Part shown: positions 14,486-64,000 of the stretch, in pieces
Numbering within the stretch: position 1 is the stretch's first letter
How the letters are laid out: every line of letters starts with the position of its first letter
IMG/VR virus record: IMGVR_UViG_3300029705_000100
Coordinates: 8,043 to 72,042 of that record
Length of the DNA: 64,000 bases
Strand: one strand, 5' to 3'
From: a virus
Lineage: Duplodnaviria; Caudoviricetes
Program-made: the position numbers and the translations under genes
Notes under the pieces: model-generated
Seen by the model: only the letters and a program-made list of their open reading frames with translations
Told to the model about the DNA's origin: nothing
Databases searched by the model: none

Positions 14486-17400
14486 TCAGGACAGAATAGT
14501 GTATTCCTGCAGCCAGAGTTCTTGTTGGCCGGAAATGGGTTTGGGCTTACCAGTAGAGAAGGAATAGGCAGGACGGCGAAGCCAATCTTTGACAAGAATG
14601 ATATTGCCTTCGGTCTATGGCTGTTCCTGATACTATAGCTTTTTTACCTTCATCACGCCAACGTTGCCCGTTGCGACGCTGTACAGCCGCAGCTTCGGGC
14701 TGTAGCGGTCATCGACTTCAAGAACCACATATACCGCCCGCTCACTTTCACAGACGGTCAGAGGCGTGCCTATATGTTCTGCCTCAAAGCGGAGGCAATC
14801 AGCCAGCGGAAGCTCCTCTTCAGGGCTGTTCTGCTCCAGCTGCCGAAGGATGGCAAGGTGCCTCTCCTGTGAGGGCTTCACATGGGTCTTGGAAAAACGG
14901 GATTCACCCTCGAGAAACTGCTTGTACACGTTCAACAGCTTCCCGGGCGTACCAAACTCACGGAAGTAGTCAAAGCGGATCAGAATATCGATTGCGCGGG
15001 AGTCAAAAGCGGGATTCATGGTCATATCATACAGCAGGTCGGTGAAACAGGCATACTGATTATTCCGCATGCGGTAGAGGGCCTGAGCTACGCGCTTTCC
15101 GATATGCTTGATGGAGGTTAGGGCATCGGAGATGGTGTTGGCGTCATGATCGAGGTAATAATCCCGATTGTCCTGACGGAATCGACAGGGTGCGACACGA
15201 ATTCCGAATGCACGTTTCATCTCGGCTTTGACCTGCGCAATGCGATCCTTGTCGCCCTTGTCGGCATAGCCGGAGAGGAGAGTTGTGTAGTATTCCTACG
15301 GGTGATGCGCTTTCAGCCATGCGCCATAGAGGGAATCAAGAGCGACGCAGACAGCGTGCGAGGCGTTGAACAAATATGCCGTGGCATCGTTAATGATTGT
15401 CCAAACCCTTTCTGCGGCATCGGCATCACCGGTGTATGAAGTGAATCCAAGCAAAAACTGTTCCTTCAGCTTCAGAACCTTTTCAGCTTTCTTTTTGGAA
15501 ATAGCTTTGATTGCTGAGTATGCTTCGGGTGCTGTAAAACCGGAGACCTGCAGTGTCTTCATGATTTGTTCCTGATACAGAATGAAGCTGGAGGTCATAT
15601 CTCTTGTCTGGATTAGCTTATCGAAGGCAGGAATACCATAGTCGAAGTGTCTCCGATCCAGAAATGTGGGTAGCATGGACTTGAAGGCCGGACGGACTGC
15701 TGCGACAAAGGCTGCAAGCTCCGTGATGTTCTTCGGCTTGTACCGCATGACCTTTTCGCGGGTCTTTTCCTGCTCTACCTGATTGAGCCCCATTGTGTAG
15801 CCTTCGGCATACATGCGCCAGGTGTCGCGATCACCGCGTGTCATATCCAACAGTTCGTTGACATTGGGCTGTACCATGCCAATCCGTTGAAAGGCTTGTT
15901 GGTTTGTGCGGCATACTTCCACCAACTATATGTCATTTTTCAGATATCCATACTGTTCGGATGTTGCGCCGTCGATGAAAGCAGCGAATACCGGCTGCTT
16001 TTTTCCTGTCTTGCTGTTGATACGTATGACGCCGATCTCGCGGCGGATATCTTCAATGCAGAGAAGATAAGCGCAAGGATGGGGAGAGATGGAGTCGATC
16101 ATGCCCATGTAGCGCTCGCTGGCAGCGATCAGATCGCGGAACTGATCGGGAACGAAGTCAGCCAGATCGACTTCTTCACCTTCATCCGCATACCTGACAG
16201 CAGTTTCATAGGCTTTCAGCTGATTACCTATCTCATTGGCTGTCTCAAAGGGAATGTTCGCAGCTCGGCAGTACATTTTCCATGCGGAAAGGCGTTTCAG
16301 CGTACCGAATGCGACCATAGGCGCCGCATGCCATTCACCAAGGACTTCCAACTGTGCCTGTTCAAATGCTTCACGGTTGGCAACGTTCATATCGATGTCA
16401 GGAAGAGAGCCGGACAGGATACGGTCGGCAGAAATAAAGCGATCGGGGAACATTTCTACCGGTATGGCAAAACGGTCGATGGACGACAAGCCCAAAAGCG
16501 AATTGGTGTAGTAGCTGGGTGCGCTGCCTCTGCCGGTCTTGGTGATGACGCCGCCTTTTTCAACAGCACGGCGCACAATTTCATGGTCAAGCAGGAAGTA
16601 ATCGCTCATGCCGGTAGAGGTGACGGTATCAGCCTCATAGCGAAGTCCATCCATGCGGATTGCTTTTTCTTCATCAGACATGCCTGCGGTCTGACGTTCA
16701 AACTCGCGGAGAATCAGTTCCATATACTTCAGATTCCGCTGTTCCTGTGTCAGATTCGGAAAGATCGTCGGGAGCTTCTTGCTCTTGTCGAACACGATAT
16801 CCTCGAAGGTCAGAAAAACATTGGTATTTTCTATAGCTTCGCGGATCTGGGCATCGGAGAGCACCCCCTGCTCCTGAAAGCGCCGGAAAGCTTCGGCTCC
16901 GGAAGGATAATCCATATACCAGCCGCCTTCATCCTCATAGCGGATGTGATTTGCTTCCAGTCTGTGCTCGCGCAGCGCAGCGTCTTCCGGATAGATGAAA
17001 TGGCTGTCCGTTCCCATGATCAGGGGGATGCCATGTGCTCGGTATAGCTTCAGAAGGAAGCGGTTGAGCTCCTTTTGCTTGTCGGTGTCGTGGTACTGCA
17101 CCTCCAGCATGAAGCTGTCGCGGAAGTGTGCTGCTATGCGCAGGATCAGGCGCGTTGCCTCCTCTTCGCCATACTTGAACACGCCGGCGATGCAGGCAGT
17201 GGTGACGAATACATCCTTGGGGTCCAGAGAAAGCAGCAGCTCCAGATCAATGCGCGGACGATAGTAATAGCCGGAGATGTTGGCTTCGGATAGGATGAAG
17301 TTCAGATCACCAACGCCTTTCCGGGTCTTTGCAGCCAGAATGATATGGCAGTTGGTGTTATCCTTCTCATGCCTGTCTTTGACGATATACGCTTCGGTCA

Positions 17401-17662
17401 CATAACGCCAGCGTAGATTGTACTTTTCTGCAAGAGAGGCACACTGGTGATACGCGCCCTGATTACCGTGTTCGCAGGAGGACAAAACGGAATACCCGAG
17501 CTCGACAGCGCGGCGGGCATAGTCTTCGTTGGTGGCCACGCTGTCGGTGAGCAGGATATTGCTGACACAGGAGTGCCGGTGATAGCAGACATAGGGAATG
17601 TCCGGCGCGGCGTCGGTTGTCGGCGCCGCGCGTGGAACATCCTATACGGGAGCAGTGGTCAT
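14486..17662 (-). CDS. dnaE: DNA polymerase III alpha-like (DnaE), 1058 aa with 5 in-frame TAGs (17642, 15926, 15296, 14633, 14615)
   Basis: PHP motif YHRHS; GRGSA; PDIDMN; HPCA; GYLKNDI*LVEV (family KxDxL); FNASHA; WLKAHHP*EYY. Three track ORFs are in one frame; ATGA overlap with upstream gene; ends TGA. Confidence 0.93.
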
Positions 17663-18441
17663 GCAGGTGTGCTCCTTTCCTTGGTGTGGATGATCTCCTG
17701 TCCGATAGGGCAGTGATCACGGGTAGAGCAGATGAATTTGCAGAAGTAGTCCGAGGATGATACCAGCCAGTCTTTGTCTGCGCGGATACCATCAATAGTC
17801 CGCTCAACCCAGTCCATTGTTTCATTATATCGTTCCATGGAGAAAGGCTCGTCCACGAATTTTCTGTAGCGGAACATATTGAACTGCAGCATGGAAGGGT
17901 ATTCGCCATAGCGATCCTTCACATAAGCGGCATAGGTGTAGAGCTGCCGGGTATTCTCAAACAGCTTCTTCTTCAGCGACTGCATGGACTTCGATTTGTG
18001 ATCGATGACGGTGATCAGTCCGGTGTTATGATCACGCAGGATCAAGTCGGCAATACCGACAAAACGGTTGCCGCGAATATCCAATTCAAACTTATCTTCG
18101 ACAGACAGAATATCGTAGTGATCTCCAAAGCCATCGAAGGATTTGAAGTAGTGCAGGCCTTCTTCATAATACTTACCGGCAAGCCCGCGGGGAAACGGCG
18201 GAAAGTATTCCCTGACGGCTTCATCGTACTCAGCGGTATAGACGTCGGCCAGTTCAAAGGACATCAGTTCGTCCTTCGCCCAGCGTTCAAGGATGCTGTG
18301 GCAATGGGTCCCGTAGGAGGCGTAGGCGTTCTGAATCTGCGGCAGTTTGTCGATGTACTGCAGCTTGAAGGCCAGAGGACATTGATCATAGAGGGCCTAC
18401 TTGCTGAACGACCATTTCATGTCATCGGGAATGAGGCACAT
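17659..18441 (-). CDS. PD-(D/E)xK (RecB/Cas4-like) nuclease; TAG at 18397
   Basis: WSFSK*ALYDQCPLAFKLQYI, YGTHCHSILE, FVGIADLIL, VIDHKS, QLYTYA, C-terminal Cys cluster. Confidence 0.88.
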
Positions 18442-18895
18442 GATGCTGCTCCTTTGCGTTCATATCATTGTGGGGAGGATCGTTTGCATCCAACTCTTCC
18501 AAACGAAGTTCAAGGTCAGCAGCCAGAGCCTTACGCAGGGACTCAGGATAGGACGGAAACATAGCGTTGATGAAGCGCTGCTCATCCCCCTCAAACACTA
18601 CGCCGCCATGGTCGGAATGGTGCTGAACGACGCTCTCCAGATGGGCAGCGCACAGCAGAATGCCAAAACACTTCTCACGCACAGCTGCAGCACAGCCCGG
18701 ATTCAAAGTTTTGCCCTTCATCTCGCAATCGGCGAGGTGAGCAGGATACCTGTTCAGCTTGCTGCTGCCCGTGCGCTTCAGATAATCGAGCGCGCGTGCA
18801 ATAATCTCCCGGGATTGCATGATGCGGTGATAGTGCTCGTCGAGGAGCTTGATTGCAGTTTCCTCGTCCATAAGAATGATAATTTCTGTGTTCAT
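18422..18895 (-). CDS. Hypothetical protein
   Basis: GGAGG RBS before ATG 18895; lies within replication operon. Confidence 0.6.
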   Translation of the reverse strand: MNTEIIILMDEETAIKLLDEHYHRIMQSREIIARALDYLKRTGSSKLNRYPAHLADCEMKGKTLNPGCAAAVREKCFGILLCAAHLESVVQHHSDHGGVVFEGDEQRFINAMFPSYPESLRKALAADLELRLEELDANDPPHNDMNAKEQHHVPHSR

Positions 18896-18914
18896 AGTGC
18901 CTCCATAGTCGTGG

Positions 18915-20711
18915 TCAGAAGGGCTGCGTACTCTCAGCCATGCGGATTGCATACTCCGGAAGGCTGTCAGCGCGTGGATTGGGCGGTATGATGCCGTTTT
19001 TGTCCCATGAGAAGCGGTTGAGATCGCCCTTGTCCGCCTGATAGATTCGTCGGCTGTCTGGACAGTAGCAGCATTCGATGATTCTGCGTACGCCGCCTTC
19101 GCGATTCTTGATGATTCTGAGGTTCGGCTGTTCGACGACGATGGCGCTGTCGGCCAGTCTCACGGTGGCGGAGCTTCCGCCGATGTCGTCCTGTCCGAGG
19201 GTTTCGCCGGTTTTGACCTTGCGAGGATGGGCAACCAGAATCACATGGACGTGATACTGATTGGCAAAACGCTTGAGGGCGTTCGCGAATTTGCCCTGCG
19301 CTTTGGTCTCTTCGTCGCTGTCGCTGAGCGCAGTCATGAGATTGTCGGCCAGAAACAGCTTGCAGCCATAGCGTCGGGCTGCGGTGACGAATACCTTCAG
19401 AATGGCTTCGGACTGATTGGACTCGAACAGCTCGGTATTGTCGTAGAGGTAGAAGTGGTCGCGGTAATACTCGGACTACCGCTGCTGAACCAGCGGAGAA
19501 ATACATGGCACGCGCATACCACGCACAGTATCGTATTTCAGTCCGATGTAGTCAGAACCTGCTGCTTGCAGGTTGATCCAGTCCAGAAAGCGCTCTTTGG
19601 TGAGTTCGCCGGAGTATGCGCAGACGGAATATCCCTGTTCAATGGCATTAAGCAGCAGCTGACCAGTGAGCGTTGACTTACCGCTTCCTGCACGTCCAGT
19701 AAATACAGTGATCGCGCCTTCTGCCAAGCCGCCGATGGTCTCGTCCAACGCTGGGATCATAGTTTTGATGCGTGGGATGGTGGTCGGGTCATAGGGCATG
19801 ACGTCCGCCAATTGCAGAAGTCCCTTGACCGGAACCGGCTGGGCACCGTTGAGAGCGTCAAGCAGAGTATCTTTTCCGTGAAAGAAAAGGATTTCGTTAG
19901 CATCTTTGCAGGGCTTACCGTCCGGCCTGTCCGGATAGTCTTCAACGATCATGCAGCGGGATTCGTCCAGCCTGCGAACCACCTCGCGAATCATCTTTCT
20001 GCCCGGTTCATCGTTGTCGCCGAACAGGATAATGGACTGAAAGCGTTCCAGCCAATTCCAGCAATGATCGATCCAATCGAGATTGCTGCAGCCAGAGGGG
20101 ACGGAGACCACATTACGGGCTCCGGCCTCATACAGAGAAAGGGCGTCGATCATGCCCTCGGTGATAATCTATGGCTGCGAGAAGGAGCACATATCCATGC
20201 CGAACAGGATTGGTCGGCTGCCGGGATACTGCCATTCCTTACGCTCCTTACCCTGCGGCTTTCGAGGAGCGCGGAATTTGACGTAGATAAGCTCGCCATC
20301 CTTGTAGAATGGAAAGATAATGCTTCCGTCAGTTGCCGTCGAGACAGAGAAGGCGTTCAGTGTCTCGGCTCTGATCTTTCTGGAGGAAAAGTAGCGGATA
20401 ATGGTATCGGTAAGCGGCAGCTGCTGTACATCAGGCAGAACAAACTGCTTTTTTGCTCTGGCGGCGGGACGGATCAGATCCGCCCGCTCGCCAAAACGTT
20501 CAGAAAGTTCCTCAAATCGGCCGCGTACACCACAGGTGCCGCGTTTGCACACATAGACGCCTTCGGTCAGGTTGAGTGCAAAAGTGTACTTGTCTCCGCT
20601 CTCGCCGCCATGACAGATAGGGCAGTGCTCAGGAATCAGCTCGTCGCCTCGGACGGTATATGGTTCCAGATGGCGTCTGGCAAACTCCAGAATATGCTGT
20701 GAAATTTCCAT
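18915..20711 (-). CDS. T7 gp4/Twinkle-like primase-helicase, 598 aa; TAGs at 20169 and 19476
   Basis: Zn finger CPIC...CKRGTC; TOPRIM QP*IITEGMIDALSL, FGDNDEPG; Walker A GRAGSGKST; LVAHPRK. Three track ORFs in frame. Confidence 0.92.
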
Positions 20712-20724
20712 ATCAAACCTCCCA

Positions 20725-21246
20725 TCATACAGCGAAATACAGAGAGGCCTTCACCCTCACGCTTTTCAGCAGGCGTGACATCTGTGCTTCCCCGGCGACG
20801 CCAACAAAAGGTATGATCTCACGGCTGCTGTAGCCATGCTGCTTCATTCGGCAGACGATCAATTCCTTTTCGTTGAGCGTACTTTCAAATTCCCGAAGAC
20901 TCAGTTCATTATCTGCCTCACAGGATAGGCGATCGTCGGATTGAATGGCGGCGTCCTCGTAATCGACACGCTGAATCTTCTTGATCTCGTTGCCGTAGCA
21001 GTATTTCGGAATCTTGACCAGAGACATGCTGCGGCACAGATCGCATAATGCGCCATGAATTGCGAATCTGCAGTGCGTGACGGTAGATTCATCGGGGATC
21101 TTCCGGAGGTGATTCAAGAAAACAAGTCTCGCCTCCTGCAGAAGATCATCCAAATCCAAACAGTCATGCGCGTGATGTGATGTGAAATCACGCACCTGAT
21201 GTTGAATGAACGGTTCATACTGAAAGAGAAATTCGGATTCTTGCAT
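20725..21246 (-). CDS. Sigma-70-like factor (regions 2 and 4)
   Basis: LDLDDLLQEARLVFL; C-terminal HTH GYSSREI...MSRLLK. Confidence 0.7.
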   Translation of the reverse strand: MQESEFLFQYEPFIQHQVRDFTSHHAHDCLDLDDLLQEARLVFLNHLRKIPDESTVTHCRFAIHGALCDLCRSMSLVKIPKYCYGNEIKKIQRVDYEDAAIQSDDRLSCEADNELSLREFESTLNEKELIVCRMKQHGYSSREIIPFVGVAGEAQMSRLLKSVRVKASLYFAV

Positions 21247-21296
21247 GGGAGTCTACTTCATTACTGCCTCCTGATTTTTCCGGATATGGGCGTCCG

Positions 21297-21671
21297 TCAG
21301 ATAGGCAGCTCGTCGTCGGACGAATGCGAAGCAGCAGCGGGCGTCATACTGTTCTTGCGGCTCGGAAATTCCACATGGTTGGCGCTGATCTGGACAGAAA
21401 CGCGGTTCTGTCCCTCGCGGTCTACATAGTTCCGCAGAGAAAGATCGCCATGGACCGTGACCTGATCTCCCTTATGGAGGTACTGCGCAACGTTCTCTGC
21501 CAGACGACGCCAGACGGTGACGCGGTAGAAAATGGGGATGTAATTGCCGCTTGCGTCTTTAGCCTTCGTATCGGATGCCAGAGTGAACGTGGTGCAGGGC
21601 GCATCGTTAATCGTGGAAAGGGTGGGGTCGGCGGTCAGACGGCCGGCGACAACAATCAGATTCTAACTCAT
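21297..21671 (-). CDS. ssb: Single-stranded DNA-binding protein; TAG at codon 3 (21663); missing from ORF track
   Basis: GGAGG RBS; MS*NLIVVAGRLTADP...FYRVTVWRRLAENVAQYLHKGDQVTVHGDL...acidic DDELPI tail. Confidence 0.92.
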
Positions 21672-21674
21672 GCG

Positions 21675-22685
21675 TTAATCCTCCATATCATCATTGGGCG
21701 TGCGATCGGGCACGTCCTTGAAACAGTCGTAAATTCTGCGCAGGGTAGCTTCATCGGTTACAGCGCGGTAATTGGCGGTACCGCCGGTAATCTGCTTGAT
21801 CTGCGCGGCAACAACTTCCTTGTCCTCTTTGCTCAGTCCGGCGCAGTACCTCTGCATAGTCTCCTCAACCAACGCAGTCAGCGGTACCTCTTCGTGGACA
21901 GGAGTAGGAGTGGATGCAGCAATGGGGGCGGGCACCTTCGGTTTTGCACCGGCCAGCCACTCATGGATGCGAGCGCCGGTATCGGGGGCGATCAGGAAAT
22001 ACTGCCCGTCGAACAGGCCGGTACGATCCTTGGTGGCAGCTGCCGCGTGCGACTGATCCAGTTCAAAGAAAATGGTGAATTCGTATTCCACGCCATCGCG
22101 GAACACGGGCGCCATGCCAATCTTCCGGGGCGTTTTCTTGCCGCTGCCATTATCCTCAATGACATACTCGGTCTTGGTTCTGAGCGTGACGGCGACGTGC
22201 ATTGCACACTGCAGGATACGGTCAACGAGACGATTGTGAAGGGGAGTGACTTCTCGCCAAGCGGTATAGGAGTTGCCGCTGCGCTTTGCAACATTGCCCT
22301 GAACGTCCAGCAGACCGCCTTCACCGGTCCATGCATGGGACAGCGAGTCGATGACCAGATACTCAACGCCTGCCTGCTCGGCCAGATCAATCGCTTCAAG
22401 ATAGCGGGCTGCGCTGTAAGGCGCTTCCAGATTGATGGTCAGGTATTCGCCGACGAGCGTACTGCCGACCTGCTTTCCGACATACAGAGAACCGGATTCA
22501 TTCTCCGTATCAATCAGGCAGATCTTCTCCCAGATTTGAGCGTCGGAGAGCTCCGGGTGTGCGGTTCGCACCTATCCGAAGCCGAGAAGCAGAGAACTGA
22601 GCGTTTTGCCGGAACCGGACGATCCTGCAAGGCCAATCTTCTACTTTGCCAGCGAACGCTGGGCTTTTCTGATTTGGATAGCCAT
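21675..22685 (-). CDS. AAA_24/Sak4-like recombination ATPase; TAGs at 22641 and 22572
   Basis: KAQRSLAK*KIGLAGSSGSGKTLSSLLLGFG*V, IDTENES, VIDSLSHAW, KDRTGLF. Confidence 0.9.
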
Positions 22686-24296: not shown

Positions 24297-24309
24297 ATTG
24301 CAAGCTCCT

Positions 24310-24924: not shown

Positions 24925-24945
24925 GAGAGCCTCCTTTTTCCATTG

Positions 24946-53100: not shown

Positions 53101-53113
53101 TGGGAGGAATACA

Positions 53114-54658: not shown

Positions 54659-54670
54659 GAGGAGGATACA

Positions 54671-55786
54671 ATGAATAAGGTATCTTTTATGGCACCGCGG
54701 GTGATGATGGCGGCAACTGAGCAGAACGATATTTACATGACTGTCGTGATGCGCATGTTCTCCACGGCGCCCAACAGAAACGGCTTTGCTGTGAGCGAAG
54801 CATTTATCGACAATATCGTTGCCAATGCGGCGAAGTACACCTGTCTTCCGTAGTGCGCGGACGCTGGTCGCCTGAGAAACGGCGGCATGGACGGCTTGAC
54901 ACACCGATTGAACAAGACCTCCGGCATCTTTGAGAGCGAGCAGATCGGCTCGTTCTTTTCTTTTGCCAAGGAGATTGACAACGGCGTGATCAGCCTACTT
55001 GGCGAAGCGAGAATTCCCAAGAGAAATCCGATGCTTTGTGAAACGCTCATGCGGCTGTATGAGGCTGGCGCACTGAATTTCTCGTTTGAGATACTGGTAG
55101 GCAATGCCACCCAGATGGATGGCGTCACGCTGATCGACGCTGTAGAAGGCAACGAACTGATTGGCATGGCGGTGGTTACGACTCCCGCTTGCCCCGAGGC
55201 GACAGCGATCAAGCTGATCGCCGAAGATGAAAACGATAACGATGATGACAGAGAGGATGAAGAGGAAATGGACGAGAAGGATAAGAAGATCGCCGAACTG
55301 GAAGGCAAGCTTCAGTAGGCTGAGCAGAAGGCGACCAATGATGAAGAGCTCCGTAAGAAGGACGAGGAGCTTACCAAAGAAAAGGAGCAGCGCGAAAGGG
55401 CTGAGGCTGAGCTGACCGAGGCAACCGGCAAGCTGACCGAAGCGGAAACCCAGCTGGCAGAAAAGGATACCCGCATTGCTGAACTGGAGGCGCAGGTATC
55501 CGAGCTCGACCCCATCAAGGCTGAGGTCGAGCAGCTGCGTGCTGACAAGGCTGCCGCTGAACTGGCTGCCAAGCAGCAAGAACTGACCCGATTTGCGGAA
55601 GCTCAGGGTCTGGACGCCAAGGAAGCGGCTATCGCCGAAGCGATCCAGAAGGCAGACTATGCTGCTCTGGTTGCTGAATCCATGAAGAAGGAAAAGACCG
55701 AGACCAAGCCTGTCGTCGCATCCTACGCCATGGGCGGCGGCATTACTGCCAAGGGCGAATACGATGACCTGCTGGGCAAGGCCTGA
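54671..55786 (+). CDS. Prohead protease/scaffold protein; TAGs at 54851 and 55316
   Basis: PNRNG, CLP*CAD, FSFEI, AVVTTPA, then a long coiled coil. Confidence 0.8.
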
Positions 55787-55808
55787 TGATGAATAGGAGG
55801 AATGAGAT

Positions 55809-56237
55809 ATGGCTGGTTATGTGACTAAGCTGATGGGCCACGTCTATGACGGCGCCTATACTGCCGCCGAACCGCTGATCAACGGCGTGTTCGCAGAGAT
55901 TACCGCAGACGGCGTCAAGAAGACTGCCGCCGCAAAGGACACCATCCTGCGCGTTGAGGAGAAGACCGAGCTGTGGGGCAATCCCGCTGTGGTGTAGAAC
56001 GTCACCGGCGTTGGCACCGACGAGGTCTACTTCGTTGAGAACGAGTGGGAAGTTGACGAGAATGCAGAATGGAATGAAGCGGATTACACCCTGCCCACTG
56101 GCAAGTATGTGCGCATGAAGCGCCTGCTGCCCGGCGAACAGGTGATCATGTCCGTTGCTACTGAACTGCATTCCGCACTTGCGGTTGGCGATTCCGTGCA
56201 GCCCGCAGCTGACGGCGTGATCGCCAAGACCGCTTGA
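55809..56237 (+). CDS. Head decoration-like structural protein; TAG at 55995
   Basis: MAGYVTKLMGHVYDG...PAVV*NVTG; lies between protease and capsid. Confidence 0.7.
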
Positions 56238-56256
56238 TAGGAAGGAGAGATAAACT

Positions 56257-57258
56257 ATGCCTCAGATTGATATCCGAAAGGACAGCAAGCTGGTGCAGCT
56301 GATCACTGCCCAGGCGCGCGGCGAGCGTGTTGATTCCGATCAGGCCGACAAGGCTGCAAAGTAGATCGCGGAGCTGGCTTCCGATCCTACCCCGCACAAC
56401 AAGTATGCAATTGGCCAGCTTGTGGGTTTTACCGTCAATGAGATGGTACGTCCCCAGACCGACTGGCTGAACCATGTAGCTGACGTCAAGCACGTTGGTT
56501 ATGGTGAAAAGGCCTCTTTCCGCGTCAAGCAGGAAGGCATCCGTGCATTCATCATGGCGAAGGCCGGTACTCCCGCCCGTTCCAAGATCGCGCACAAGCA
56601 GGTCACTCTGGACACCATTGCTGTATCTGCCAGACCTGTGATCAACCTGTACGAGCTGCGCACCGGTCGCGTGCAGATGGCTGACCTGATCCGTGACGCC
56701 GCCAATGAGATGCATCTCAAGCAGGTTCAGTACATTCAAGGTGTACTGCACAGTGCGGCGGAGAATTGGGAATCTCCCTTCTATGGCACCGGTACCGGCA
56801 TCGTCAAGACTGTGTTGAATCCCATGCTGCAGCATTGGATGCGAACCGGTTCGGTTTCCCTGCTGGGTGATATCGCGATCATCTCTCAGCTGGCCGAACA
56901 GACCGGCTTCACTGCGGCGGCTGCCACTCAGCAGTTCTCCCAGAACGTGATTGATGAGGTCATGCGCACCGGCCTGATCGGCACCTACTACGGCGCCAAG
57001 GTCATCAACATGGTCAACCCCTATCTGGGCGACAATGTGACTCCGGTGATCGATACCAAGCGTCTGTATATTCTGCCTTCCGGCGCTTCTGCGGACATGC
57101 GTCCTCTGAAGGTACTGTACGAGGGTGACGTCCAGTCCACTGAATCCACCAACATCGACGATCTCGCCTATGAGGTTCGTCTGGACCAGTGGTTCGGCGC
57201 CGGTATCGTGGTCGGTAAGACTCCGACTATGAGTGTGTACACCGATACCACTGCCTGA
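56257..57258 (+). CDS. Major capsid protein; TAG at codon 36 (56362)
   Basis: 333 aa; GAAGGAG RBS; DKAAK*IAELA; position in the head module. Confidence 0.82.
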
Positions 57259-57310
57259 TAAACGATGTATGCGGCGGAGGAGCATCCTCCGCCGCAGGAG
57301 GTGATTGAAC

Positions 57311-57733
57311 ATGGAAAAGATTCGAGTACACAATCCACGTAAGTTTGCGATTGGCCTGACGCTGGCGAACGGTACTGAGCGTACTGTTCTGCCTGGCTCC
57401 TATACGCTGCTTTCGAAGGAAGATATTGAGCATCTGGCCAGTTTTGCACCGGCGCTGTTTCAGGATGAAAAGCTGCTGCGTATTGAGGAGCGAAATCTGA
57501 CTGCAGAGTTGGGCTTTATTGACGATCCTGAAAAGCCGGTGCTGGATGATGAGGAGATTCGCAAGAATCTCAGTCAGCGTGTTTCTCAGGTAAAGGCATG
57601 GCTGGACGGCATTGATGAAGCGTACCTGCTGGACGCTATCTGTGATGTCGCAGCCGGTATGGACCTGCCAGCCAGCAAGCTGCAGCTGCTTCAGGAGAAG
57701 CTTCCTGAGCGTGAGTTTCTGAAGACCGAATGA
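57311..57733 (+). CDS. Head-associated hypothetical protein
   Basis: Position after capsid; RBS. Confidence 0.65.
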   Translation: MEKIRVHNPRKFAIGLTLANGTERTVLPGSYTLLSKEDIEHLASFAPALFQDEKLLRIEERNLTAELGFIDDPEKPVLDDEEIRKNLSQRVSQVKAWLDGIDEAYLLDAICDVAAGMDLPASKLQLLQEKLPEREFLKTE

Positions 57734-57748
57734 TGGAGGTGATCTGCC

Positions 57749-58138
57749 ATGACGGATATACAGAAGATGGCTCAGGAGCTGAGACAGCGCACCGAATGGC
57801 AGGATACTCCGGTGGAATTGGTCAACGAAGATTATCTGGAGATCGTCCGTCAGGCAGTACGCCATCTGTATGTGATGACCGGGCGTTACACTCAGTATGA
57901 TGATTCTTCGGATATTGCTCTTAGCGCAGACGAATATGAGTATGTGCTGACTACTGCGGAGATTGGTTTCTACCGTCGCGTGCAGTCGGACGTTAACCGA
58001 ATCGTCGGTTATTCTACTGACGCTATGACGATCACCAACGCGGACAAGCCCTATGCCAACATCAGTCAGACAGTGAACGAGCTTCTGAACAGACAGCGGA
58101 TTCTCTACTACAAGATGACGCGTTTTGTACTTCTGTGA
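57749..58138 (+). CDS. Head-tail adaptor-like protein
   Basis: Position; helical 129 aa. Confidence 0.6.
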   Translation: MTDIQKMAQELRQRTEWQDTPVELVNEDYLEIVRQAVRHLYVMTGRYTQYDDSSDIALSADEYEYVLTTAEIGFYRRVQSDVNRIVGYSTDAMTITNADKPYANISQTVNELLNRQRILYYKMTRFVLL

Positions 58139-58151
58139 CGGAGGTGGATGG

Positions 58152-58832
58152 ATGAAATTCTATGTGCCGCCAAAGCTTCGGCAGGATTTCAAGGACTGGC
58201 TACATACTGACGTCCAAAATGCCAACTATGATTTCCAGATCATCCGCGACTGGTATCAGCAGACGAAAGTGGCGCCGATCCGGGCGCTGTTCTTTCCGAT
58301 ATCCTGGAAATCCAAAATCGGAAACTCGGACGCCAACAGTAACTTCAAGACCAGCTATGATTACATCATCCGCAAGGGCGACATCGCCATCCGCGAGGAT
58401 GGCATGATCCTGATGCTGAACTGGCAGGTGCAGAACAATCCCAACAACCAGTCCACACAGGCGATTGCTTGCAATGCCCGCTTTCAGTTTGAACGGCATG
58501 TGGACGAGAAGGTTGACAGCAAGGGGTTCCTGATTGAGGAGGCGCATGACGAGATCATCGCACCGAAAATCCCCGGCGTGTATGCTGAGTATACCGGCAG
58601 GCCTGATTATGCGGCAAGCTACAATACGCCCGGTATATCGCCGGATCACCTGCTGACGGTGCAGGTGCAGTTCAATCCACGGACGGATCTGATCCGGCTT
58701 GGCGATGAGTTTGCCCTCATGCACAGCCGGTACCGCATCGTCAACCGCGTGGATACAGAAGTGGACATTGATCGCCAATACGGGATCATAAACTAGATGG
58801 CGCGAAGGATCGCCGGAGAGGAGTCGCTATGA
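58152..58832 (+). CDS. Head-closure-like protein; TAG at 58794
   Basis: YGIIN*MARRIAGEESL-TGA; read-through gives an ATGA overlap with the next gene. Confidence 0.72.
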
Positions 58833-59386
58833 AGCAGAGCTGCAATCGGATTTCTCTGGATGAAGCTGCGCTGATGGCCGCTCTCCGCGAAGAAGCGAAG
58901 GATGCGTTGGAACGGGAAGGGCAAAGGCTGCTCAGTCATATGCAGCACGAAGTTATAAATACCACCCACGGCGGCGCCCCTGGCAAGCCGGACTGGCGTA
59001 AGGAAATCGTGCGGAATCTGGATAAGACAGCGGTGGCTGTCACGGATGATTCGGTATCGATGGACTTTGGCTATTCTCCTTCTGATAAGGCGGATGAAGT
59101 ACGTGCCATGTTGGTTGAGGCAGGCTCCGGCAGTGCAGCCGGTGGCAAGCCTATTACGGCGGGACCGAATGGCAGAAGCGTATGGAACAGTGAGCTGGAT
59201 GGAAAGCATCCGTCCCGAGCTAAGAGCGTGTACAAGCTGCCGGCTGAATTCAACCAGAAGGGCAACAAGTTTGTTGAGAATGCGATGCGTATGATGCAGA
59301 CGGAGTTCGGTACGATAACGGAGACAGTATTTGCAACTACTCCCGACAGTGCTTACTATGGAAACGTGAAGGTGGATGAGCGATGA
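58829..59386 (+). CDS. Tail completion/neck-like protein
   Basis: Position; ATGA coupling at both ends. Confidence 0.6.
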   Translation: MKQSCNRISLDEAALMAALREEAKDALEREGQRLLSHMQHEVINTTHGGAPGKPDWRKEIVRNLDKTAVAVTDDSVSMDFGYSPSDKADEVRAMLVEAGSGSAAGGKPITAGPNGRSVWNSELDGKHPSRAKSVYKLPAEFNQKGNKFVENAMRMMQTEFGTITETVFATTPDSAYYGNVKVDER

Positions 59387-59856
59387 AGAAACTGCGCACA
59401 TGGCATGATAACTGGAACAACGTGATCCGCGAGGTTTTGTTTCCGGACGCCGAATAGAAGACGCTGATGTGTATTCCGGAAGATAAGCGGGAGAACATCC
59501 GCGAGTTCATCGACCGCTACTTCATTGAGGATGCCATGCCGGACGAACTGGTTCTGAATGAAGACGTACGCGTGATCTGTTACGAAACCGAGGGTACGCA
59601 GCTGGGAACGCCGCATGTGCTCAGAAAATTCCTGGCCTTTGATATTTATGTCAAGGAAGATGCTCTGTATAACGTTGGAGCAGATCGACTACAGCGTCGG
59701 GACAAAAAAATAAGTCAGCGGCTCAAAGAACTGCTGACTGGGAAAGAGCATGTATGTGGTATACGATTTGGGTATGAGGATGAATACCATCTGGGAGCCA
59801 AAACGATTGGCTATAGAAGGTATCATGTGGTATTCTCATATGTGACTACATGGTGA
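59383..59856 (+). CDS. Tail terminator-like protein; TAG at 59455
   Basis: ATGA overlap start; LFPDAE*KTLMCIP. Confidence 0.72.
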
Positions 59857-60040
59857 TCATTTTTCCACGAATGTCTTGACGATCTGAACGATCTGCTCGT
59901 GGCGTTCTTCTGGCGCGGTCTTCATGTAAGCGGCGACCTTCATAATGTGCTCATCGATAGGAATGAGATCCACATCCTCGCTTGAGAGATTGAGTAGATC
60001 AGAAAGGTCGATCTGCAAGGCCTGCGCGATAGGCGAAAAT
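59857..60040 (-). pseudogene. Possible C-terminal remnant of an XRE-family HTH regulator
   Basis: IAQALQIDLSDLL resembles the end of an XRE HTH; N-terminal half absent. Confidence 0.35.
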
Positions 60041-60042
60041 AC

Positions 60043-60546
60043 ATGACAAAATTGGTATGTGCATTTACTGGACATCGACCAGAAAAGCTGGGATTCCCGT
60101 GGGATGAAAGTGAGCCTCGCTACAAGCGGCTCAAACAAAAACTATTTTGTGAAATATTACAATTGACCCGTGACGGTGTGAGTGTCTTTATTACCGGAAT
60201 GGCAAGAGGCGTAGACCAGCTTGCAGCAGAGATCGTTCTCTCTTTGAAGGATGTCGTTCCGGACAGAAATCTGCAGCTGTGGGCTGCTGTACCATATGAC
60301 CGTCAATCGTTGAGCTGGTCTCCCAAGGATAAGGCGAGATACGATGCTATCCTTAAAAAAGCAGACAAGATTGAATATGTAAGCCACAATTACTACAATG
60401 GATGCCTGCTTACGAGGAACCGTTACATGGTAGACAATGCCAGCCACCTGATTGCAGTCTATGATGAGAATCAGGGTGGCGGCACTAAATACACGGTTGA
60501 CTATGCCCGAAAGAAAGGGCTGAACATTATTATCATCGAACCATGA
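60043..60546 (+). CDS. SLOG-family YspA/DUF1273 protein
   Basis: CAFTGHRP, FITGMARGVD, AAVPY, RNRYMVDNA, GGTKYTVDYA. Confidence 0.88.
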   Translation: MTKLVCAFTGHRPEKLGFPWDESEPRYKRLKQKLFCEILQLTRDGVSVFITGMARGVDQLAAEIVLSLKDVVPDRNLQLWAAVPYDRQSLSWSPKDKARYDAILKKADKIEYVSHNYYNGCLLTRNRYMVDNASHLIAVYDENQGGGTKYTVDYARKKGLNIIIIEP

Positions 60547-60563
60547 AGGAGGTTTGATTCACA

Positions 60564-61397
60564 ATGGCACAGTACATTGATCAGATCGCCGGTTACATTG
60601 CAGACAACCCGAATTAGGATTTTGAGCGATGTGACGGCAAGGTGTTTTCCTACTACGAGGTAAACACCGCGAACATGAGCGCGACCAACAACACCCTGTC
60701 TATTAACGGCGGTCAGGGCAACTATCCGCTGGCATTCATTGAGACCGACAAGGCGTAGGAATTCACCTTCGCCAGCTCTCAGTTTTCTCTGGATATGTTT
60801 GCCATGGCGAACGCCGTTCAGATGAAGCAGGGCGATGTTGCTACTCTGGAGAGCAAGCTGTATGAGGTGAAGGCCGGTCTCAACGTAACCATCCCTTATG
60901 AGACGCAGGCGGAATCCGTGAAGATCAGCGGTTTTGAACAGGCGGATACCGCAGCTGCTGGCAAGTTCTCCGTAGCTGCCGGTGACGGTGATACTCCCAC
61001 TACGGAGATCACCTTCCACGAAGGCGACATTGCTGTTGGCGATACCATCCGCATTGCCTATCGCCGCCGTGTGAACGGCGCATCCATGGCGACGGTCAAG
61101 ACCAACTCCACTACCGCCAAGGGCGCTCTGTATGCACACTGGCCGGTCTACTCCAGCGGCACCGATTGCACCGAAAGCTCCATCAAGGGCTATCTGCATC
61201 TTTATATTCCGCGTGTGCGCGTGACTGCGCTGCCCGGCTTCGACAACAGCTACAAGTCTGCTGCTACCAACAGCGTGACTTTCAGCGCCATCGACCCGAA
61301 GCGCGCAGACGAAAAGATGTACGATCTGTACTACGAGCCGCTGGATGCTAACGGCGCAGTTGTCACTACGCCCACCGGCGAAGTGACCTGGAACTGA
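60564..61397 (+). CDS. Major tail (tube) protein; TAGs at 60615 and 60756
   Basis: AGGAGG RBS; YIADNPN*DFERCDG; TDKA*EFTFASSQF; in frame with track ORF 60795. Confidence 0.78.
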
Positions 61398-61407
61398 TGA
61401 TTGATCG

Positions 61408-61438
61408 GGGACACAGCATGAGCGCTGTGTCCCTTTTC
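61408..61438 (+). terminator. Rho-independent terminator after tail tube gene
   Basis: GGGACACAGC/GCTGTGTCCC stem followed by TTTT. Confidence 0.75.
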
Positions 61439-61462
61439 TGATGCAGAAGGAGGAAAAGGACA

Positions 61463-62977
61463 ATGGCGAAGTATACGAACTAGCAGTAGGTCGCCTTTGC
61501 CGAAAAGGCACTTGCTGAAGGCTGGAAATACTGGTACGGAACGTGCGGCTATAAGGCCACTCAGTCCCTGTACGAGAGAAAAAAGAAGCAGTATCCCAAG
61601 CACTACACGGATGGCAGAACTGCGACTTATAAGAAGCATATTGCGGAAGGCCGCATGGTTGCCGACTGCGTCGGTCTGATCAAGGCGTTCTTCTGGACTT
61701 CCAACGGCACTGCTGAGAACAAGTATCAGGCAAACAACTGCCCTGACCGTTCTGCCAATGGTATGTTCTCCCTGTGCGAGAAGACCGGCAAGATCGCGAC
61801 TATTCCCAACACCCCTGGTCTGGTGGTGTGGAACGACGGCCACATCGGCGTCTCTATTGATGGCATCTATGCCATCGAAGAGCGCGGTTTCAACTACGGA
61901 ATCGTCAAAACCAAGATTTCTGATCGCAGCTGGACCAACTGGGGTAAACTGCCTGCATCCATGCTGGACTATGTGAACGGCGATGTGCAGGAGGATCCTG
62001 ATGATGCAGCTGAATGTCCCTATACCGAGCCCACGAAGAATCTGAAGAAGGGTGCCGAAGGAACCGGCGTCAAGTGGGTGCAGTGGATGCTGGAGGGCTG
62101 CGGCTACTCCGTGGGCAGCTATGGCATCGATGGCGATTTCGGCTCCGCAACGCATGCTGCAGTAACGAAATTCCAGAAAGACCAGAAGCTGGAAGTGGAC
62201 GGAGTTGTGGGCAAGCTGACCCGCGCTGCGCTGAAGGCTGCACAGCCTAAGGTTGAGATTGATCCGGATGGCGAAGACGATCCTGATGATGAAGATGACG
62301 ACAAGCAGGAACATCAGGCTCCTGAAACCTCTGCACCTGCTGACCCTGAGCCGGAGGTCAAGGAGGAATATGATATCAAGGGAAAGATCGCAGATCTGTC
62401 CAAGTGGCAGGGCGCGATCGACTGGAGCAAGGCTGCCCGCGAACTGGACTTCTGCATTCTCCGTGCGCAGTACGGTCATGAGAAGATTGACGAGAAGTAC
62501 AAGGAATATGCCCTCGGCTGTGAAGAACATGACATTCCCTACGGCGCGTACTCATACTGTCTGTTCGATGACGAGGAAACCGCGGTTGAGGAAGCTCAGT
62601 TCTTCATGGAGCGCATTGCGGGCACCAATCCGCTGTATCTCGTTCTCGACGTCGAGCCGGGCGGTGTGAAGGCGCGGGATATCCGCAAGGAGGTTTCCGC
62701 TTACATTGCAGAGCTGCGCAGGCTGGGTGTGCAGCGCATCGGTCTGTACATCGCCCACCATGCGTACAAGGCGTACAACATCAATGTGGACGAGGCGGAC
62801 TTTGTATGGATTCCCCGATACGGCTCCAACTCCGGTCAGCCTGAAAAGGAACCGGATCATCCCTGTGATCTGTGGCAGTATACCTCCAATGGTCTGCTGG
62901 GCGGCGTCAAGGGCCGTGTGGATCTCAATAAGCTGATGGACGAAACCCGCATGGCGTGGTTTCGCGGAGAGGAGTAA
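61463..62977 (+). CDS. Endolysin: NlpC/P60-like peptidase + peptidoglycan-binding domain + GH25 muramidase; TAGs at 61481 and 61487
   Basis: MAKYTN*Q*VAFAEKAL; ADCVGL, GHIGV; VDGDFG/VDGVVG; ADLSKWQG, VLDVE, LWQYTS, VDLN. Confidence 0.9.
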
Positions 62978-63318
62978 TGAGCATGAACATGATTGACCTG
63001 ACTCCTGTATTGGAGGCATAGATCGGCCTCCTTGCCACGATCATCACCGTCAAGGTGATCCCGTGGCTGAAGAGTAAAACGACCAAGGAACAGCAGGATT
63101 ACCTGCTGGCAACTGCCCGCGTACTGGTGTATGCGGCTGAGCAGGTGTATGGCGCCGGCAAGGGCGACGTAAAGATGCAGTATGTGCAGGACGAGCTGGA
63201 AAGTAGAGGCCTGAGTATTGATCTTCCCGTCATCGAGGCGGCTGTACGCGAGATGAACCTTATCGAGAGCTGGGAAACCACCATCGAACTGGAGGAAACT
63301 GAGGATGGCAAGCACTAA
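62977..63318 (+). CDS. Holin (LL-H-like); TAG at 63019 within the TM helix
   Basis: IDLTPVLEA*IGLLATIITVKVIPWLKSK...AAEQVYGAGKG...IEAAV. Confidence 0.88.
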
Positions 63319-63715
63319 GCCCATCCCGCCGACAGATCAGACGGAAAAGGGACTGCCGCAGGTCGGCAGTCCCGAAAATACCGTCGTAATCGGCGGTGAA
63401 TAGATTGAAATCAAGCCCACGAAGCTGCGCTATCAGCGCAACCGGACTGCGGCATTTTATAAAGTACTGGAGATGTATCCCATTGCTGATATTCTAGCCA
63501 TGGAAGCTGGAGCTTTCGGCGACGATCGCGACGGCGACAAAGCCTTGATGGACTGGCTGATTGCGGTGACAGATCATCCCGATCTGGTGACTGCCCATTA
63601 CGATGAGATGGACACCGGAACCATCGAGCAGCTGCTCACGATCTTCCGGCGCGTGAACCGGATTGATGAAAAGGAACAGAAGCTAAAAAACCTGCAGACG
63701 GCACGAAAGGCGTAA
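63305..63715 (+). CDS. Tail assembly chaperone (gpG-like); TAG at 63401
   Basis: VVIGGE*IEIKPTKLRYQRNR; ends just after A-AAA-AAC slippery site. Confidence 0.75.
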
Positions 63716-64000
63716 CCCTTGATCGTGCCGTCGCAATGATTGCTGCGCATCTGGGCGTGGTAGATGAAGAACGCATCAACGACATGAGCTATGTCTTCTT
63801 TGATGATGTTCTTCGGGAATAGGGTTACAAGCTGAACTACGAAGCGGTTGCCAACTACGCAGGCAATGCGTTCTGCGAAAAGAGCTGGGATATGATCCAG
63901 AAGAGCAATCCCTTCAATATTGTCGAAGCCCGCAGCGGCTCTCAGGCAATGGGAAGCCTTGCAAGCTTCCTGGGATCGAGCAAAATCACAATCATGGGAG
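63685..64000 (+). CDS. -1 frameshift extension of tail chaperone (gpGT-like), partial; TAG at 63820
   Basis: Heptamer AAAAAAC at 63685-63691; -1 frame open to the window end: TLDRAVAMIAAHLG...DVLRE*GYKLNYEAV. Confidence 0.72.

What the first reader, a model, noticed from the sequence alone, without database searches (positions are those of the whole stretch)
14486..64000. TAG codons are confined to replication and late genes and enriched near 5' ends
Seen: in-frame TAGs occur in the replisome (14.5-22.7 kb) and late arm (46.3-64 kb). I found none internal in the integrase, the ~21 kb early arm, the RT, the cargo or the IS elements. 18 of 39 TAGs fall in the first 40 codons (SSB 3, terminase 3, RemA 6, DnaE 7, portal 7, endolysin 7 and 9, holin 15), although those positions are only about 12% of the recoded codons by rough count. 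Established: recoded stops concentrated in lytic genes have been proposed as a timing control in code-15 phages. Inference: early ambers act as a translational lock during lysogeny, here also covering DNA replication. Caveat: rare codons are generally enriched near 5' ends.
Basis: partly seen in the sequence, partly recalled or inferred. Interest (0 to 1): 0.8.

Follow-up and report, generated by a model that had tools for sequence, protein, structure and literature searches.

The report
Front-loaded amber codons gate phage genes
A gut prophage reads the stop codon TAG as leucine through its own tRNA, keeps TAG out of its early genes, and places half of its TAGs in the first 40 codons of replication, virion and lysis genes; this looks like a translational safety catch, and the codon meaning and the placement rule were not found in the papers searched.

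Summary
The window has 40 in-frame TAGs: 12 in replication genes, 27 in the late arm and 1 in a RemA-like gene. There are none in the 30 early-arm genes (5,676 codons, including the integrase and RT) and none internal in the cargo or IS genes.

Twenty of the 40 lie in the first 40 codons; for the whole contig it is 24 of 46, against 13.6% of codons. Shuffling TAG among each gene's own leucine sites gives 8.5±2.3, and 0 of 20,000 shuffles reach 24. No other codon behaves this way.

Four related phages show the same partition and the same bias. Pooled, TAG's share of leucine sites is 12-15% up to codon 40 and about 3% beyond it, which is a step and not a gradient.

TAG means leucine: 103 of 132 TAGs in relatives align to window Leu, and the tRNA body is Leu-type.

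The partition itself is the known "alternative-code phage" pattern (Borges et al.). The leucine meaning and the 40-codon rule were not found in the papers searched.

The "lock" reading is plausible but not shown, and damage limitation under leaky suppression is a serious rival. Other agents of this scan have noted 5'-proximal TAG gates in unrelated phages; those notes are unchecked.

The parts
315..402 (-). Suppressor tRNA, anticodon CUA, class II, A73, encoded CCA, Leu-type body
   Evidence: ARAGORN and Rfam. The sequence was read directly. The best matches in Clostridia MAGs are tRNA-Leu(UAA) genes, 85% identity over 71 nt. Relatives G001-G003 carry the same tRNA 36-42 nt downstream of DnaE.
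1..266 (-). RemA-like gene (runs 48 nt past the window's left edge), TAG at codon 6 (249-251); first gene after the tRNA
   Evidence: PF04025, E 1.2e-19, domain residues 8-80. At the same codon G002 has TAG and G001 has TTA.
14486..22685 (-). TAG-dependent replication block with 12 in-frame TAGs (codon positions in brackets): DnaE (7, 579, 789, 1010, 1016), PD-(D/E)XK, primase-helicase (181, 412), 178-aa protein, SSB, AAA_24
   Evidence: Pfam, TAG coordinates, Leu at the aligned sites in relatives.
22896..23813 (-). XerC/D-like tyrosine recombinase, TAG-free
   Evidence: PF00589 and PF02899.
23964..44395 (-). TAG-free arm of about 29 genes: ArdC-like anti-restriction protein, DNA methyltransferase, RT, DUF2958, DUF4241 and many unknowns. 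No in-frame TAG and no TAG stop.
   Evidence: A TAG-free arm is present in all four relatives, and the orthologues there are also TAG-free.
46173..64000 (+). TAG-dependent late arm with 27 in-frame TAGs (codon positions in brackets): AEP-primase/Ant-like, sigma-region-4-like protein, exonuclease, HNH, TerL (3, 71, 438), portal (7, 265, 514), MCP-like, virion protein, GH25 endolysin, holin, others
   Evidence: PHROGs and Pfam; coordinates.
558..14372 (.). Low-GC cargo with IS66 (6398-8904) and a group II intron (9222-11054), inserted between DnaE and the tRNA. No internal TAG.

Best explanation
The element is a temperate Clostridia phage. The contig is a 72-kb fragment of a prophage integrated next to a host tRNA-Lys. 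The phage decodes UAG as leucine with its own tRNA-Leu(CUA), in competition with host release factor 1.

Genes that must work before that tRNA exists, or without it, are kept free of TAG. These are the two integrases and the roughly 21-kb anti-defence/early arm. Nucleotide-metabolism, replication, packaging, virion and lysis genes carry TAG and so yield full-length protein only once the tRNA is made.

Selection also acts on where the TAGs sit. They are kept within about the first 40 codons, so an undecoded TAG aborts translation after a short peptide. That length is about what the ribosome exit tunnel holds; the coincidence is my inference. The lock is therefore tight and cheap, and it leaves no truncated fragments of nucleases, holin, endolysin or assembly proteins.

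The tRNA gene lies within the TAG-dependent middle block, so the gate is a second, translational layer that opens when that block is transcribed.

Shown: the codon meaning, the partition, the positional step and their conservation across relatives. Inferred: the timing of tRNA expression, competition with RF1, and the adaptive (regulatory) nature of the placement.
For: - TAG = Leu. Window TAG sites align to Leu in relatives at 90 of 112 non-TAG cells, and relatives' TAGs align to window Leu at 103 of 132. The tRNA body is Leu-type.
- Partition. 0 TAGs in 5,676 early-arm codons against 46 in 10,587 codons of the other phage modules. The same TAG-free arm is present in four relatives. Early-arm orthologues that have diverged about as far as core genes (ArdC 70%, RT 71%, MTase 63%) are still TAG-free, so lack of time does not explain it.
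- Position. 24 of 46 TAGs lie in the first 40 codons; the within-gene permutation expects 8.5±2.3 and 0 of 20,000 shuffles reach 24. Relatives give 23 vs 9.3, 20 vs 8.3, 22 vs 7.1 and 14 vs 4.4.
- Step. Pooled, TAG's share of Leu sites is 15, 12, 13 and 14% in the four 10-codon bins up to codon 40, then 3-4% with no further decline. TAG is enriched 4.1-fold in codons 11-40; the next codon reaches 1.5-fold.
- Total leucine use is flat along genes. Only the choice of TAG changes.
- Orthologues keep an early TAG at shifting sites: portal 7/10/7/16/3, PD-(D/E)XK 15/19/17/27, holin 13/13/11/15 by the automatic start calls (codon 15 from the curated start), AAA_24 15/29/29/12.
- 24 of the 85 TAG sites seen only in relatives are in the first 40 codons.
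- The lysis genes are the most tightly gated: endolysin has two TAGs, at codons 7 and 9, and holin has one at 13-15 in all four genomes that hold it.
- TAG context fits competition with termination. T is depleted at +4 (7 of 104 5' TAGs, against 16-20% after Leu codons).
- Both integrases are TAG-free. Homologues of the left-end integrase are 361-364 aa, which places its start after the upstream TAGs.
Against: - There are no expression data. No RNA run holds the phage.
- The tRNA sits inside the locked block, not in the early arm. In this phage it is cut off from that block by 14 kb of cargo and a terminator-like hairpin, so how it is regulated here is unknown.
- The number of genes carrying at least one TAG is not above random expectation (30 vs 26.2, P 0.08; the relatives are null).
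- Several late genes have no TAG.
- The high retention of TAG between relatives (52% at 5' sites, 30% elsewhere) could partly reflect TAG's single synonymous neighbour, TTG, and need not mean selection.
- In the one TAG=Gln phage tested (phAss-1) there is no overall 5' bias: OR 1.16. Only sparsely recoded genes show a hint: OR 2.9, p 0.017.
Confidence: 0.5

Rival explanations
1. Damage limitation without a regulatory role. The phage tRNA always competes with RF1, so every TAG yields some abortive product. TAGs drift in as synonyms of Leu codons. They are purged wherever the truncated product is long enough to leave the ribosome, fold partially, poison assemblies or waste resources. They survive only in the first ~40 codons. 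The TAG-free early arm then only reflects that those genes are translated before the tRNA accumulates.
For: - The profile is a step, not a gradient. It is flat at 2-4% beyond codon ~40-80, as expected if every 'long' fragment is equally bad.
- T is depleted at +4, which indicates selection for read-through against termination.
- The count of genes carrying a TAG equals the random expectation.
- Many TAG sites turn over between relatives.
Against: - In codons 2-40 TAG takes 12-16% of Leu sites. In this contig that is about twice TTG, its only synonymous neighbour (24 vs 11), and about five times CTA. That is more than tolerance alone predicts.
- There is no enrichment in the last 20 codons, where truncation should be harmless too.
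- Specific genes keep an early TAG across relatives even when its site moves.
Confidence: 0.3
2. A generic 5' codon effect. Slow or A/T-rich codons are favoured near starts, either as a translational ramp or to lower mRNA structure, and TAG is simply the slowest and rarest 'Leu' codon.
For: - A-rich codons (AGA, CGA, CAA, GTA, ATT, AAA) are 1.8-2.1-fold enriched in codons 2-10.
- The extent of ~40 codons matches the ramp length proposed for other organisms (from my own knowledge; not checked here).
Against: - In codons 11-40 those codons fall back to ~1.0 while TAG stays at 4.1-fold.
- The other rare Leu codons (CTA, TTA, TTG, CTT) show 1.0-1.4-fold.
- mRNA-structure effects are confined to roughly the first 10-15 codons (established knowledge).
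Confidence: 0.08
3. Annotation artefact. Reading TAG as sense extends ORFs upstream past their true starts and creates spurious 5' TAGs.
For: - This does happen for the left-end integrase. The long ORF has TAGs at codons 4 and 18 (TTG start; codon 5 from the ATG start), but homologues are 361-364 aa. Borges et al. report the same artefact.
- A few starts are ambiguous, for example the 178-aa gene, which has an ATG at codon 6.
Against: - SD-backed upstream starts, mostly with no later start.
- Domains that start at or before the TAG.
- Protein-level conservation from residues 1-4, with Leu codons at the TAG sites in relatives.
- 0 of 30 early-arm genes show the pattern, and the standard-code control L014 shows TAGs mostly within the last dozen codons and none in the first 40.
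Confidence: 0.03

Closest known systems
Alternatively coded (stop-codon-recoded) gut phages, including the temperate TAG-recoded 'Garnet' and 'Topaz' prophages (Borges et al., bioRxiv 10.1101/2021.08.26.457843)
   Same: Phage-encoded suppressor tRNA. In-frame TAG concentrated in structural and lysis genes. Integrase free of in-frame stops. Replication genes variably recoded. Proposed role as a regulator of lytic genes and of the lysis-lysogeny switch. Firmicutes/Clostridia gut hosts.
   Different: There TAG is read as Gln (code 15); here it is read as Leu through a tRNA-Leu-derived suppressor. That paper has no mention of leucine and no analysis of codon position within genes (term search). 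The Garnet and Topaz genomes illustrated there are ~24-25 kb; this phage is more than 72 kb (CheckV puts an 80-kb relative at 69% complete).
bldA / rare UUA leucine codon gating in Streptomyces (see PMC10327506)
   Same: A single dedicated tRNA-Leu decodes a codon that is confined to a defined set of genes, so those genes depend on that tRNA. The codon is usually single per gene, and some conserved TTA sites lie at nt 16-42 of their genes. The phage tRNA's nearest cellular relatives are tRNA-Leu(UAA), the bldA isoacceptor type.
   Different: There the codon is a sense codon, and the outcome without the tRNA is stalling, not termination. That system is cellular and developmental, not viral. No stop-codon reassignment is involved.
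NCBI genetic codes 16 and 22 (chlorophycean and Scenedesmus mitochondria, TAG = Leu); classical E. coli amber suppressor tRNA-Leu (supP). Both from my own knowledge.
   Same: UAG is decoded as leucine by a tRNA-Leu with a CUA anticodon. LeuRS does not read the anticodon, which makes this reassignment easy.
   Different: The mitochondrial codes are organelle-wide and permanent, and supP is a laboratory suppressor. Neither involves a modular partition or a positional rule.
phAss-1 (OQ749652), a TAG=Gln gut phage (PMC10607447)
   Same: Suppressor tRNA(CUA) genes. TAG in virion genes and some DNA-processing genes.
   Different: Very dense recoding in a few giant genes and no overall 5' bias: OR 1.16. 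Sparsely recoded genes show only a hint: 9 of 33 TAGs in the first 40 codons, p 0.017.

Membership tests
Stop-codon-recoded (alternatively coded) phages sensu Borges et al. | In-frame reassigned stop codons inside conserved phage genes, whose read-through restores full-length homologues | tested here: met
   DnaE, NrdD, ThyX, TerL, portal, endolysin and others are full length only with TAG read through.
Stop-codon-recoded (alternatively coded) phages sensu Borges et al. | Phage-encoded suppressor tRNA matching the reassigned codon | tested here: met
   tRNA(CUA) at 315-402(-), also present in relatives G001-G003.
Stop-codon-recoded (alternatively coded) phages sensu Borges et al. | Recoded codons concentrated in late and lysis genes and avoided in the integrase | tested here: met
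   27 TAGs in the late arm and 0 in both integrases and the early arm.
Stop-codon-recoded (alternatively coded) phages sensu Borges et al. | Host uses the standard code | tested here: inconclusive
   Putative hosts are Clostridia MAGs. In about 30 kb of their DNA, long ORFs end in TGA 13 times, TAA 8 times and TAG once. The sample is too small for a code call.
Genetic code 15 (TAG = Gln) | TAG aligns with glutamine in homologues, and the suppressor tRNA is of Gln type | tested here: not met
   TAG aligns with Leu (103 of 132; Gln 6 of 132) and the tRNA is class II and Leu-like.
bldA-type rare-codon gating | The codon is confined to a regulon and decoded by one dedicated tRNA | tested here: met
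bldA-type rare-codon gating | The tRNA is temporally regulated, so that codon-bearing genes are delayed | not testable with these tools
   No RNA data. The promoter scan was uninformative.
Generic 5' rare-codon ramp | Rare or slow codons in general are enriched over the first 30-50 codons | tested here: not met
   Only TAG is enriched in codons 11-40 (4.1-fold; the next codon reaches 1.5-fold).

The most novel reading that the evidence does not exclude
The sharp edge at about codon 40 reflects a general design rule for codon-gated genes. Under this rule a conditional stop is selected to lie in the stretch translated before the nascent chain leaves the ribosome exit tunnel. An unopened gate then produces only a tunnel-length peptide, perhaps with strong polarity on the mRNA.

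If so, the placement is direct genomic evidence that stop-codon recoding in phages is an evolved regulatory lock and not a neutral code drift. The same rule should then appear in other recoded phages and in the suppressor-tRNA-gated modules that this scan has noted elsewhere.
Probability: 0.3. Interest if true: 0.85.

Novelty: new variant of a known kind. Interest (0 to 1): 0.7.

Why it matters
The idea that phages use stop-codon recoding to control lytic genes rests mainly on which genes carry the codon. A strong, clade-wide and sharply bounded positional rule adds a second, independent kind of evidence that selection acts on these codons.

It also makes the hypothesis directly testable. One can move a TAG from codon 7 to codon 150, or swap it for CTG, and measure leak, yield and lysogen stability.

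Two practical points follow:
- TAG=Leu is a phage code that current annotation pipelines do not offer (they provide codes 4 and 15), so such phages will be mistranslated.
- The tRNA-Leu(CUA)/LeuRS route is an easy, natural path to amber reassignment.

Tried and rejected
- RNA evidence. No RNA holder is listed for the late arm. The holders are animal faeces and gut DNA metagenomes.
- Read laying on four DNA runs. It showed only that near-identical and roughly 90-95% strains occur there (depth ~90-100 in a sheep-gut run). The difference table was cut (1,345 rows hidden), so per-site TAG polymorphism could not be scored.
- Promoter and terminator scans around the tRNA, the early/late divergent region and the integrase/replication junction. 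The only useful result was a terminator-like hairpin at 546-523(-), upstream of the tRNA.
- 'One lock per gene' test. The number of genes with at least one TAG does not differ from random.
- 3'-end enrichment. None, so a U-shaped 'harmless ends' model was dropped.
- Absence of TAG as a stop codon (TGA 60, TAA 19, and one TAG-TGA tandem). I do not count this as evidence, because the putative hosts rarely use TAG stops anyway (1 of 22).
- Codon-retention analysis. TAG is retained more than other minor Leu codons, but TAG's isolation in codon space can explain much of that.
- Sequence motif around 5' TAGs. None beyond depletion of C at -1 (CTAG avoidance) and depletion of T at +4, both shared with downstream TAGs.
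- phAss-1 as an out-group. No global 5' bias; only one genome was tested, so generality remains open.
- Fold of the sigma-like 133-aa protein. The model is confident (pLDDT 89) but no Foldseek match reaches E<=0.001. The top rows are ECF sigma factors, sigma region 4 and LuxR-type HTH, and Pfam hits among its homologues are weak. It remains only a candidate regulator.
- Literature searches for TAG=Leu in phages or for a positional bias of recoded stops. Nothing was found in the held library. That is not proof of absence.


Full report
**What the DNA is**

The window is bases 8043-72042 of a 72,042-bp virus record. The contig's left end holds a host-type tRNA-Lys(UUU) next to a tyrosine integrase. 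IMG/VR classes two close relatives as proviruses. Portal homologues lie in Clostridia MAGs (Candidatus Faecivicinus, Aristaeellaceae), and near-identical DNA occurs in animal faeces metagenomes. CheckV puts an 80-kb relative at 69% complete, so this contig is a fragment and the tail genes are presumably missing.

**Layout (window coordinates)**

- Left of the window, on the minus strand: integrase, MazG, NUDIX, NrdD, thioredoxin and ThyX.
- RemA-like gene ending at 266(-).
- tRNA(CUA) at 315-402(-).
- Low-GC cargo at 558-14372, with IS66 and a group II intron.
- Replication block at 14486-22685(-): DnaE, PD-(D/E)XK nuclease, primase-helicase, SSB and AAA_24.
- XerC-like recombinase at 22896-23813(-).
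- A minus-strand arm of about 21 kb with ArdC-like anti-restriction protein, DUF4241, RT, a large methyltransferase, DUF2958 and many unknowns.
- A plus-strand late arm from 46173 to the window end: AEP-primase/Ant-like, a sigma-region-4-like protein, exonuclease, HNH, TerL, portal, MCP-like, virion proteins, GH25 endolysin and holin.

**What TAG means**

I ran tblastn of the window's proteins against eleven IMG/VR relatives. At the window's TAG positions the relatives have either TAG (60 cells) or an amino acid, and that amino acid is Leu in 90 of 112 cells. Where relatives have TAG, the window has Leu in 103 of 132 cases, Val in 7 and Gln in 6.

The tRNA is class II, with A73, an encoded CCA and a Leu-like D arm. 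Its best matches in the putative host MAGs are tRNA-Leu(UAA) genes, 85% identical over 71 nt. So TAG means Leu, not the Gln of code 15.

**The partition**

With a curated gene list, in-frame TAGs number:
- 7 in the nucleotide-metabolism genes left of the window.
- 12 in the replication block.
- 27 in the late arm.
- 0 in the 30 genes of the early arm (5,676 codons, 461 Leu codons). About 24 would be expected at the rate of the other modules.
- 0 internal in the 13 cargo, IS and intron genes. One of these ends TAG-TGA.

TAG trinucleotides do occur out of frame in the early arm. The left-end integrase is also TAG-free once its start is set by homologue length, 361-364 aa. That is the same N-terminal-extension artefact Borges et al. 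describe.

Four related genomes of 54-80 kb show the same TAG-free arm flanked by TAG-bearing arms. Early-arm orthologues that have diverged about as far as core genes are TAG-free in every genome. The arm's state is therefore maintained and is not a matter of recent acquisition.

**The 5' bias**

- Counts. In the window 20 of 40 TAGs lie in the first 40 codons; in the whole contig it is 24 of 46, where those codons are 13.6% of the total. That is a 3.8-fold enrichment, binomial p 6e-10.
- Against other Leu codons. Standard Leu codons sit at 0.99 of expectation. Fisher tests give p 2e-9 against all Leu codons and p 8e-8 against CTA/TTA/CTT/TTG. TAG is the most 5'-enriched of all codons at cut-offs of 10, 20, 40 and 60 codons.
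Shuffling TAG among each gene's own Leu sites gives 8.5±2.3, and 0 of 20,000 shuffles reach 24. The median first TAG per gene is at codon 19.5, against 81.5 expected.
- Relatives. They give 23 vs 9.3, 20 vs 8.3, 22 vs 7.1 and 14 vs 4.4, with 0 of 5,000 shuffles reaching the observed value in each. Of the 85 TAG sites seen only in relatives, 24 are in the first 40 codons.
- Shape. Pooled over the five genomes, TAG's share of Leu sites is 15.2, 12.1, 12.6 and 14.3% in the four 10-codon bins up to codon 40. It then falls to 3.3% and 4.5%, and stays at about 2-4% with no further decline. The one exception is a bump at codons 61-70, caused by sites shared among relatives.
- Gene ends. There is no enrichment in the last 20 codons.
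- Other codons. A-rich codons are 1.8-2.1-fold enriched in codons 2-10 and back to ~1.0 in codons 11-40. TAG is 4.3-fold and 4.1-fold in those two ranges.

**Artefact checks**

- The upstream starts have SD motifs and mostly no alternative start after the TAG.
- Domains begin at or before the TAG in SSB, PD-(D/E)XK, AAA_24, RemA and ThyX.
- Alignments to relatives begin at residues 1-4, with Leu codons at the TAG sites.
- The same pipeline puts no 5' TAG in the 30 early-arm genes. In a standard-code phage (L014) it finds TAGs mostly within the last dozen codons, as true stops, and none in the first 40.

**Further anatomy relevant to mechanism**

- tRNA position. In G001-G003 the tRNA lies 36-42 nt after the DnaE stop and just before RemA-ThyX-NrdD, all on one strand. 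It therefore belongs to the TAG-dependent middle block. In this phage about 14 kb of cargo has been inserted between DnaE and the tRNA, and a terminator-like hairpin (546-523, minus strand) lies just upstream of the tRNA.
- TAG context. T is rare at +4 (7 of 104 5' TAGs, against 16-20% after Leu codons) and C is rare at -1. The +4 bias is what competition with a release factor would favour; that link is my inference.
- Turnover. Orthologues tend to keep an early TAG while its exact site moves: portal 7/10/7/16/3, PD-(D/E)XK 15/19/17/27, holin 13/13/11/15 by the automatic start calls (codon 15 from the curated start), exonuclease 34/12-39/6/39/57 (site identity).
- Retention. At Leu-conserved sites TAG is retained between genomes at 52% (5' sites) and 30% (elsewhere). 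The minor Leu codons sit at their saturated frequencies of 7-21%. TAG has a single synonymous neighbour (TTG), so part of this is mutational.
- Occupancy. The number of genes with at least one TAG is no higher than random.
- A candidate regulator. A 133-aa protein near the head of the late arm (48070-48471) has TAGs at codons 21, 50 and 55. Its homologues give weak GerE and sigma-70 region 4 hits. Its confident model (pLDDT 89) resembles ECF sigma factors and region 4 only below significance. It could be a TAG-gated late regulator, but this is not established.

**Interpretation**

Established here:
- Full-length translation of the nucleotide-metabolism, replication, packaging, virion and lysis genes depends on the phage tRNA.
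- The genes that must be read by a naive host are kept TAG-free.
- Selection acts on where TAG sits within a gene.

Two readings explain the last point:
- Adaptive gate (my estimate 0.5). An early stop gives the tightest, cheapest lock and no harmful fragments. TAG's high share in codons 2-40 favours this reading. In this contig TAG is used about twice as often there as TTG, its only synonymous neighbour (24 vs 11). The doubled TAG in the endolysin and gene-specific persistence across relatives also favour it.
- Damage limitation under leaky suppression (0.3). TAGs survive only where abortive products are short. The flat plateau after the step and the null occupancy test favour this reading.

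A generic ramp or mRNA-structure effect (0.08) and an annotation artefact (0.03) are largely excluded. The coincidence of the step with the ~30-40 residues held in the ribosome exit tunnel, and a possible added effect through transcriptional polarity, are my inferences.

**Comparison with the literature**

Borges et al. (10.1101/2021.08.26.457843) already describe four of the features seen here:
- Recoding concentrated in structural and lysis genes.
- Integrases free of in-frame stops.
- Variably recoded replication genes.
- The lysis-lysogeny switch hypothesis.

That text has no occurrence of 'Leu' or 'N-termin'. Other papers on recoded phages mention only Gln and Trp. Full-text searches for TAG=Leu phages or for positional bias found nothing.

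The bldA/UUA system in Streptomyces is the nearest functional analogue.

The one out-group tested, phAss-1 (TAG=Gln), shows no overall 5' bias and only a hint in sparsely recoded genes.

Notes by other agents of this scan report TAGs a few codons into genes beside suppressor tRNAs in unrelated phages. I did not test those notes.

**Verdict**

I class this as a new variant (TAG=Leu, with a sharp front-loading rule) of a known kind of system.

Noticed in passing
L001:4318-7221 (contig, left of the window): Relative to the solved NrdD 4coi, this NrdD has an insertion of about 350 aa between residues 328 and 677. The insertion begins with a Cys followed by an intein-like N-terminal motif, so it is probably an intein.
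   Followed up: no
window 520-14480: About 14 kb of low-GC cargo sits between DnaE and the suppressor tRNA; in three relatives these two are 36-42 nt apart. The cargo holds an IS66 three-gene unit, a group II intron with RT/maturase, a SEC-C-motif protein and a weakly TNT-like 407-aa protein. A terminator-like hairpin at 546-523(-) separates it from the tRNA.
   Followed up: partly
window 54653-54658 and 3844-3849: Two tandem stops. The portal gene ends ...TAG TAA. Cargo gene 3844-4161(-) ends TAG TGA, so it terminates at almost the same place under either code.
   Followed up: no
window 48070-48471: A 133-aa protein with TAGs at codons 21, 50 and 55. Many database homologues are fragments that begin or end near those positions, which suggests they were called under the standard code. 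The confident model is all-helical and resembles sigma region 4 / LuxR HTH only weakly. It is a candidate late regulator or a small terminase-like DNA binder.
   Followed up: partly
window 46173-48080: The first gene of the rightward arm combines an AEP-TOTE-type primase domain (PF22548, E 1.8e-11) with an anti-repressor-like C-terminus. Its start codon is uncertain.
   Followed up: no
window 60043-60546: A YpsA/SLOG-family protein (PF06908, E 1e-28) encoded among the virion genes. It is TAG-free.
   Followed up: no
window 37621-38916 and the downstream 36.3-37.6 kb: A stand-alone RT (phrog_1423) in the TAG-free arm, next to a gene-poor stretch. Other first-stage notes describe a repeat-hairpin array there. 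I did not examine it.
   Followed up: no
all TAG sites, window and relatives: C is strongly depleted just before TAG (5-8% C at -1), which avoids CTAG. T is depleted just after it (6-12% at +4).
   Followed up: partly
L014 (IMGVR_UViG_3300035698_021011): A distant DnaE relative (25% identity) is a standard-code phage with ordinary TAG stops. I used it as a negative control for the pipeline.
   Followed up: yes
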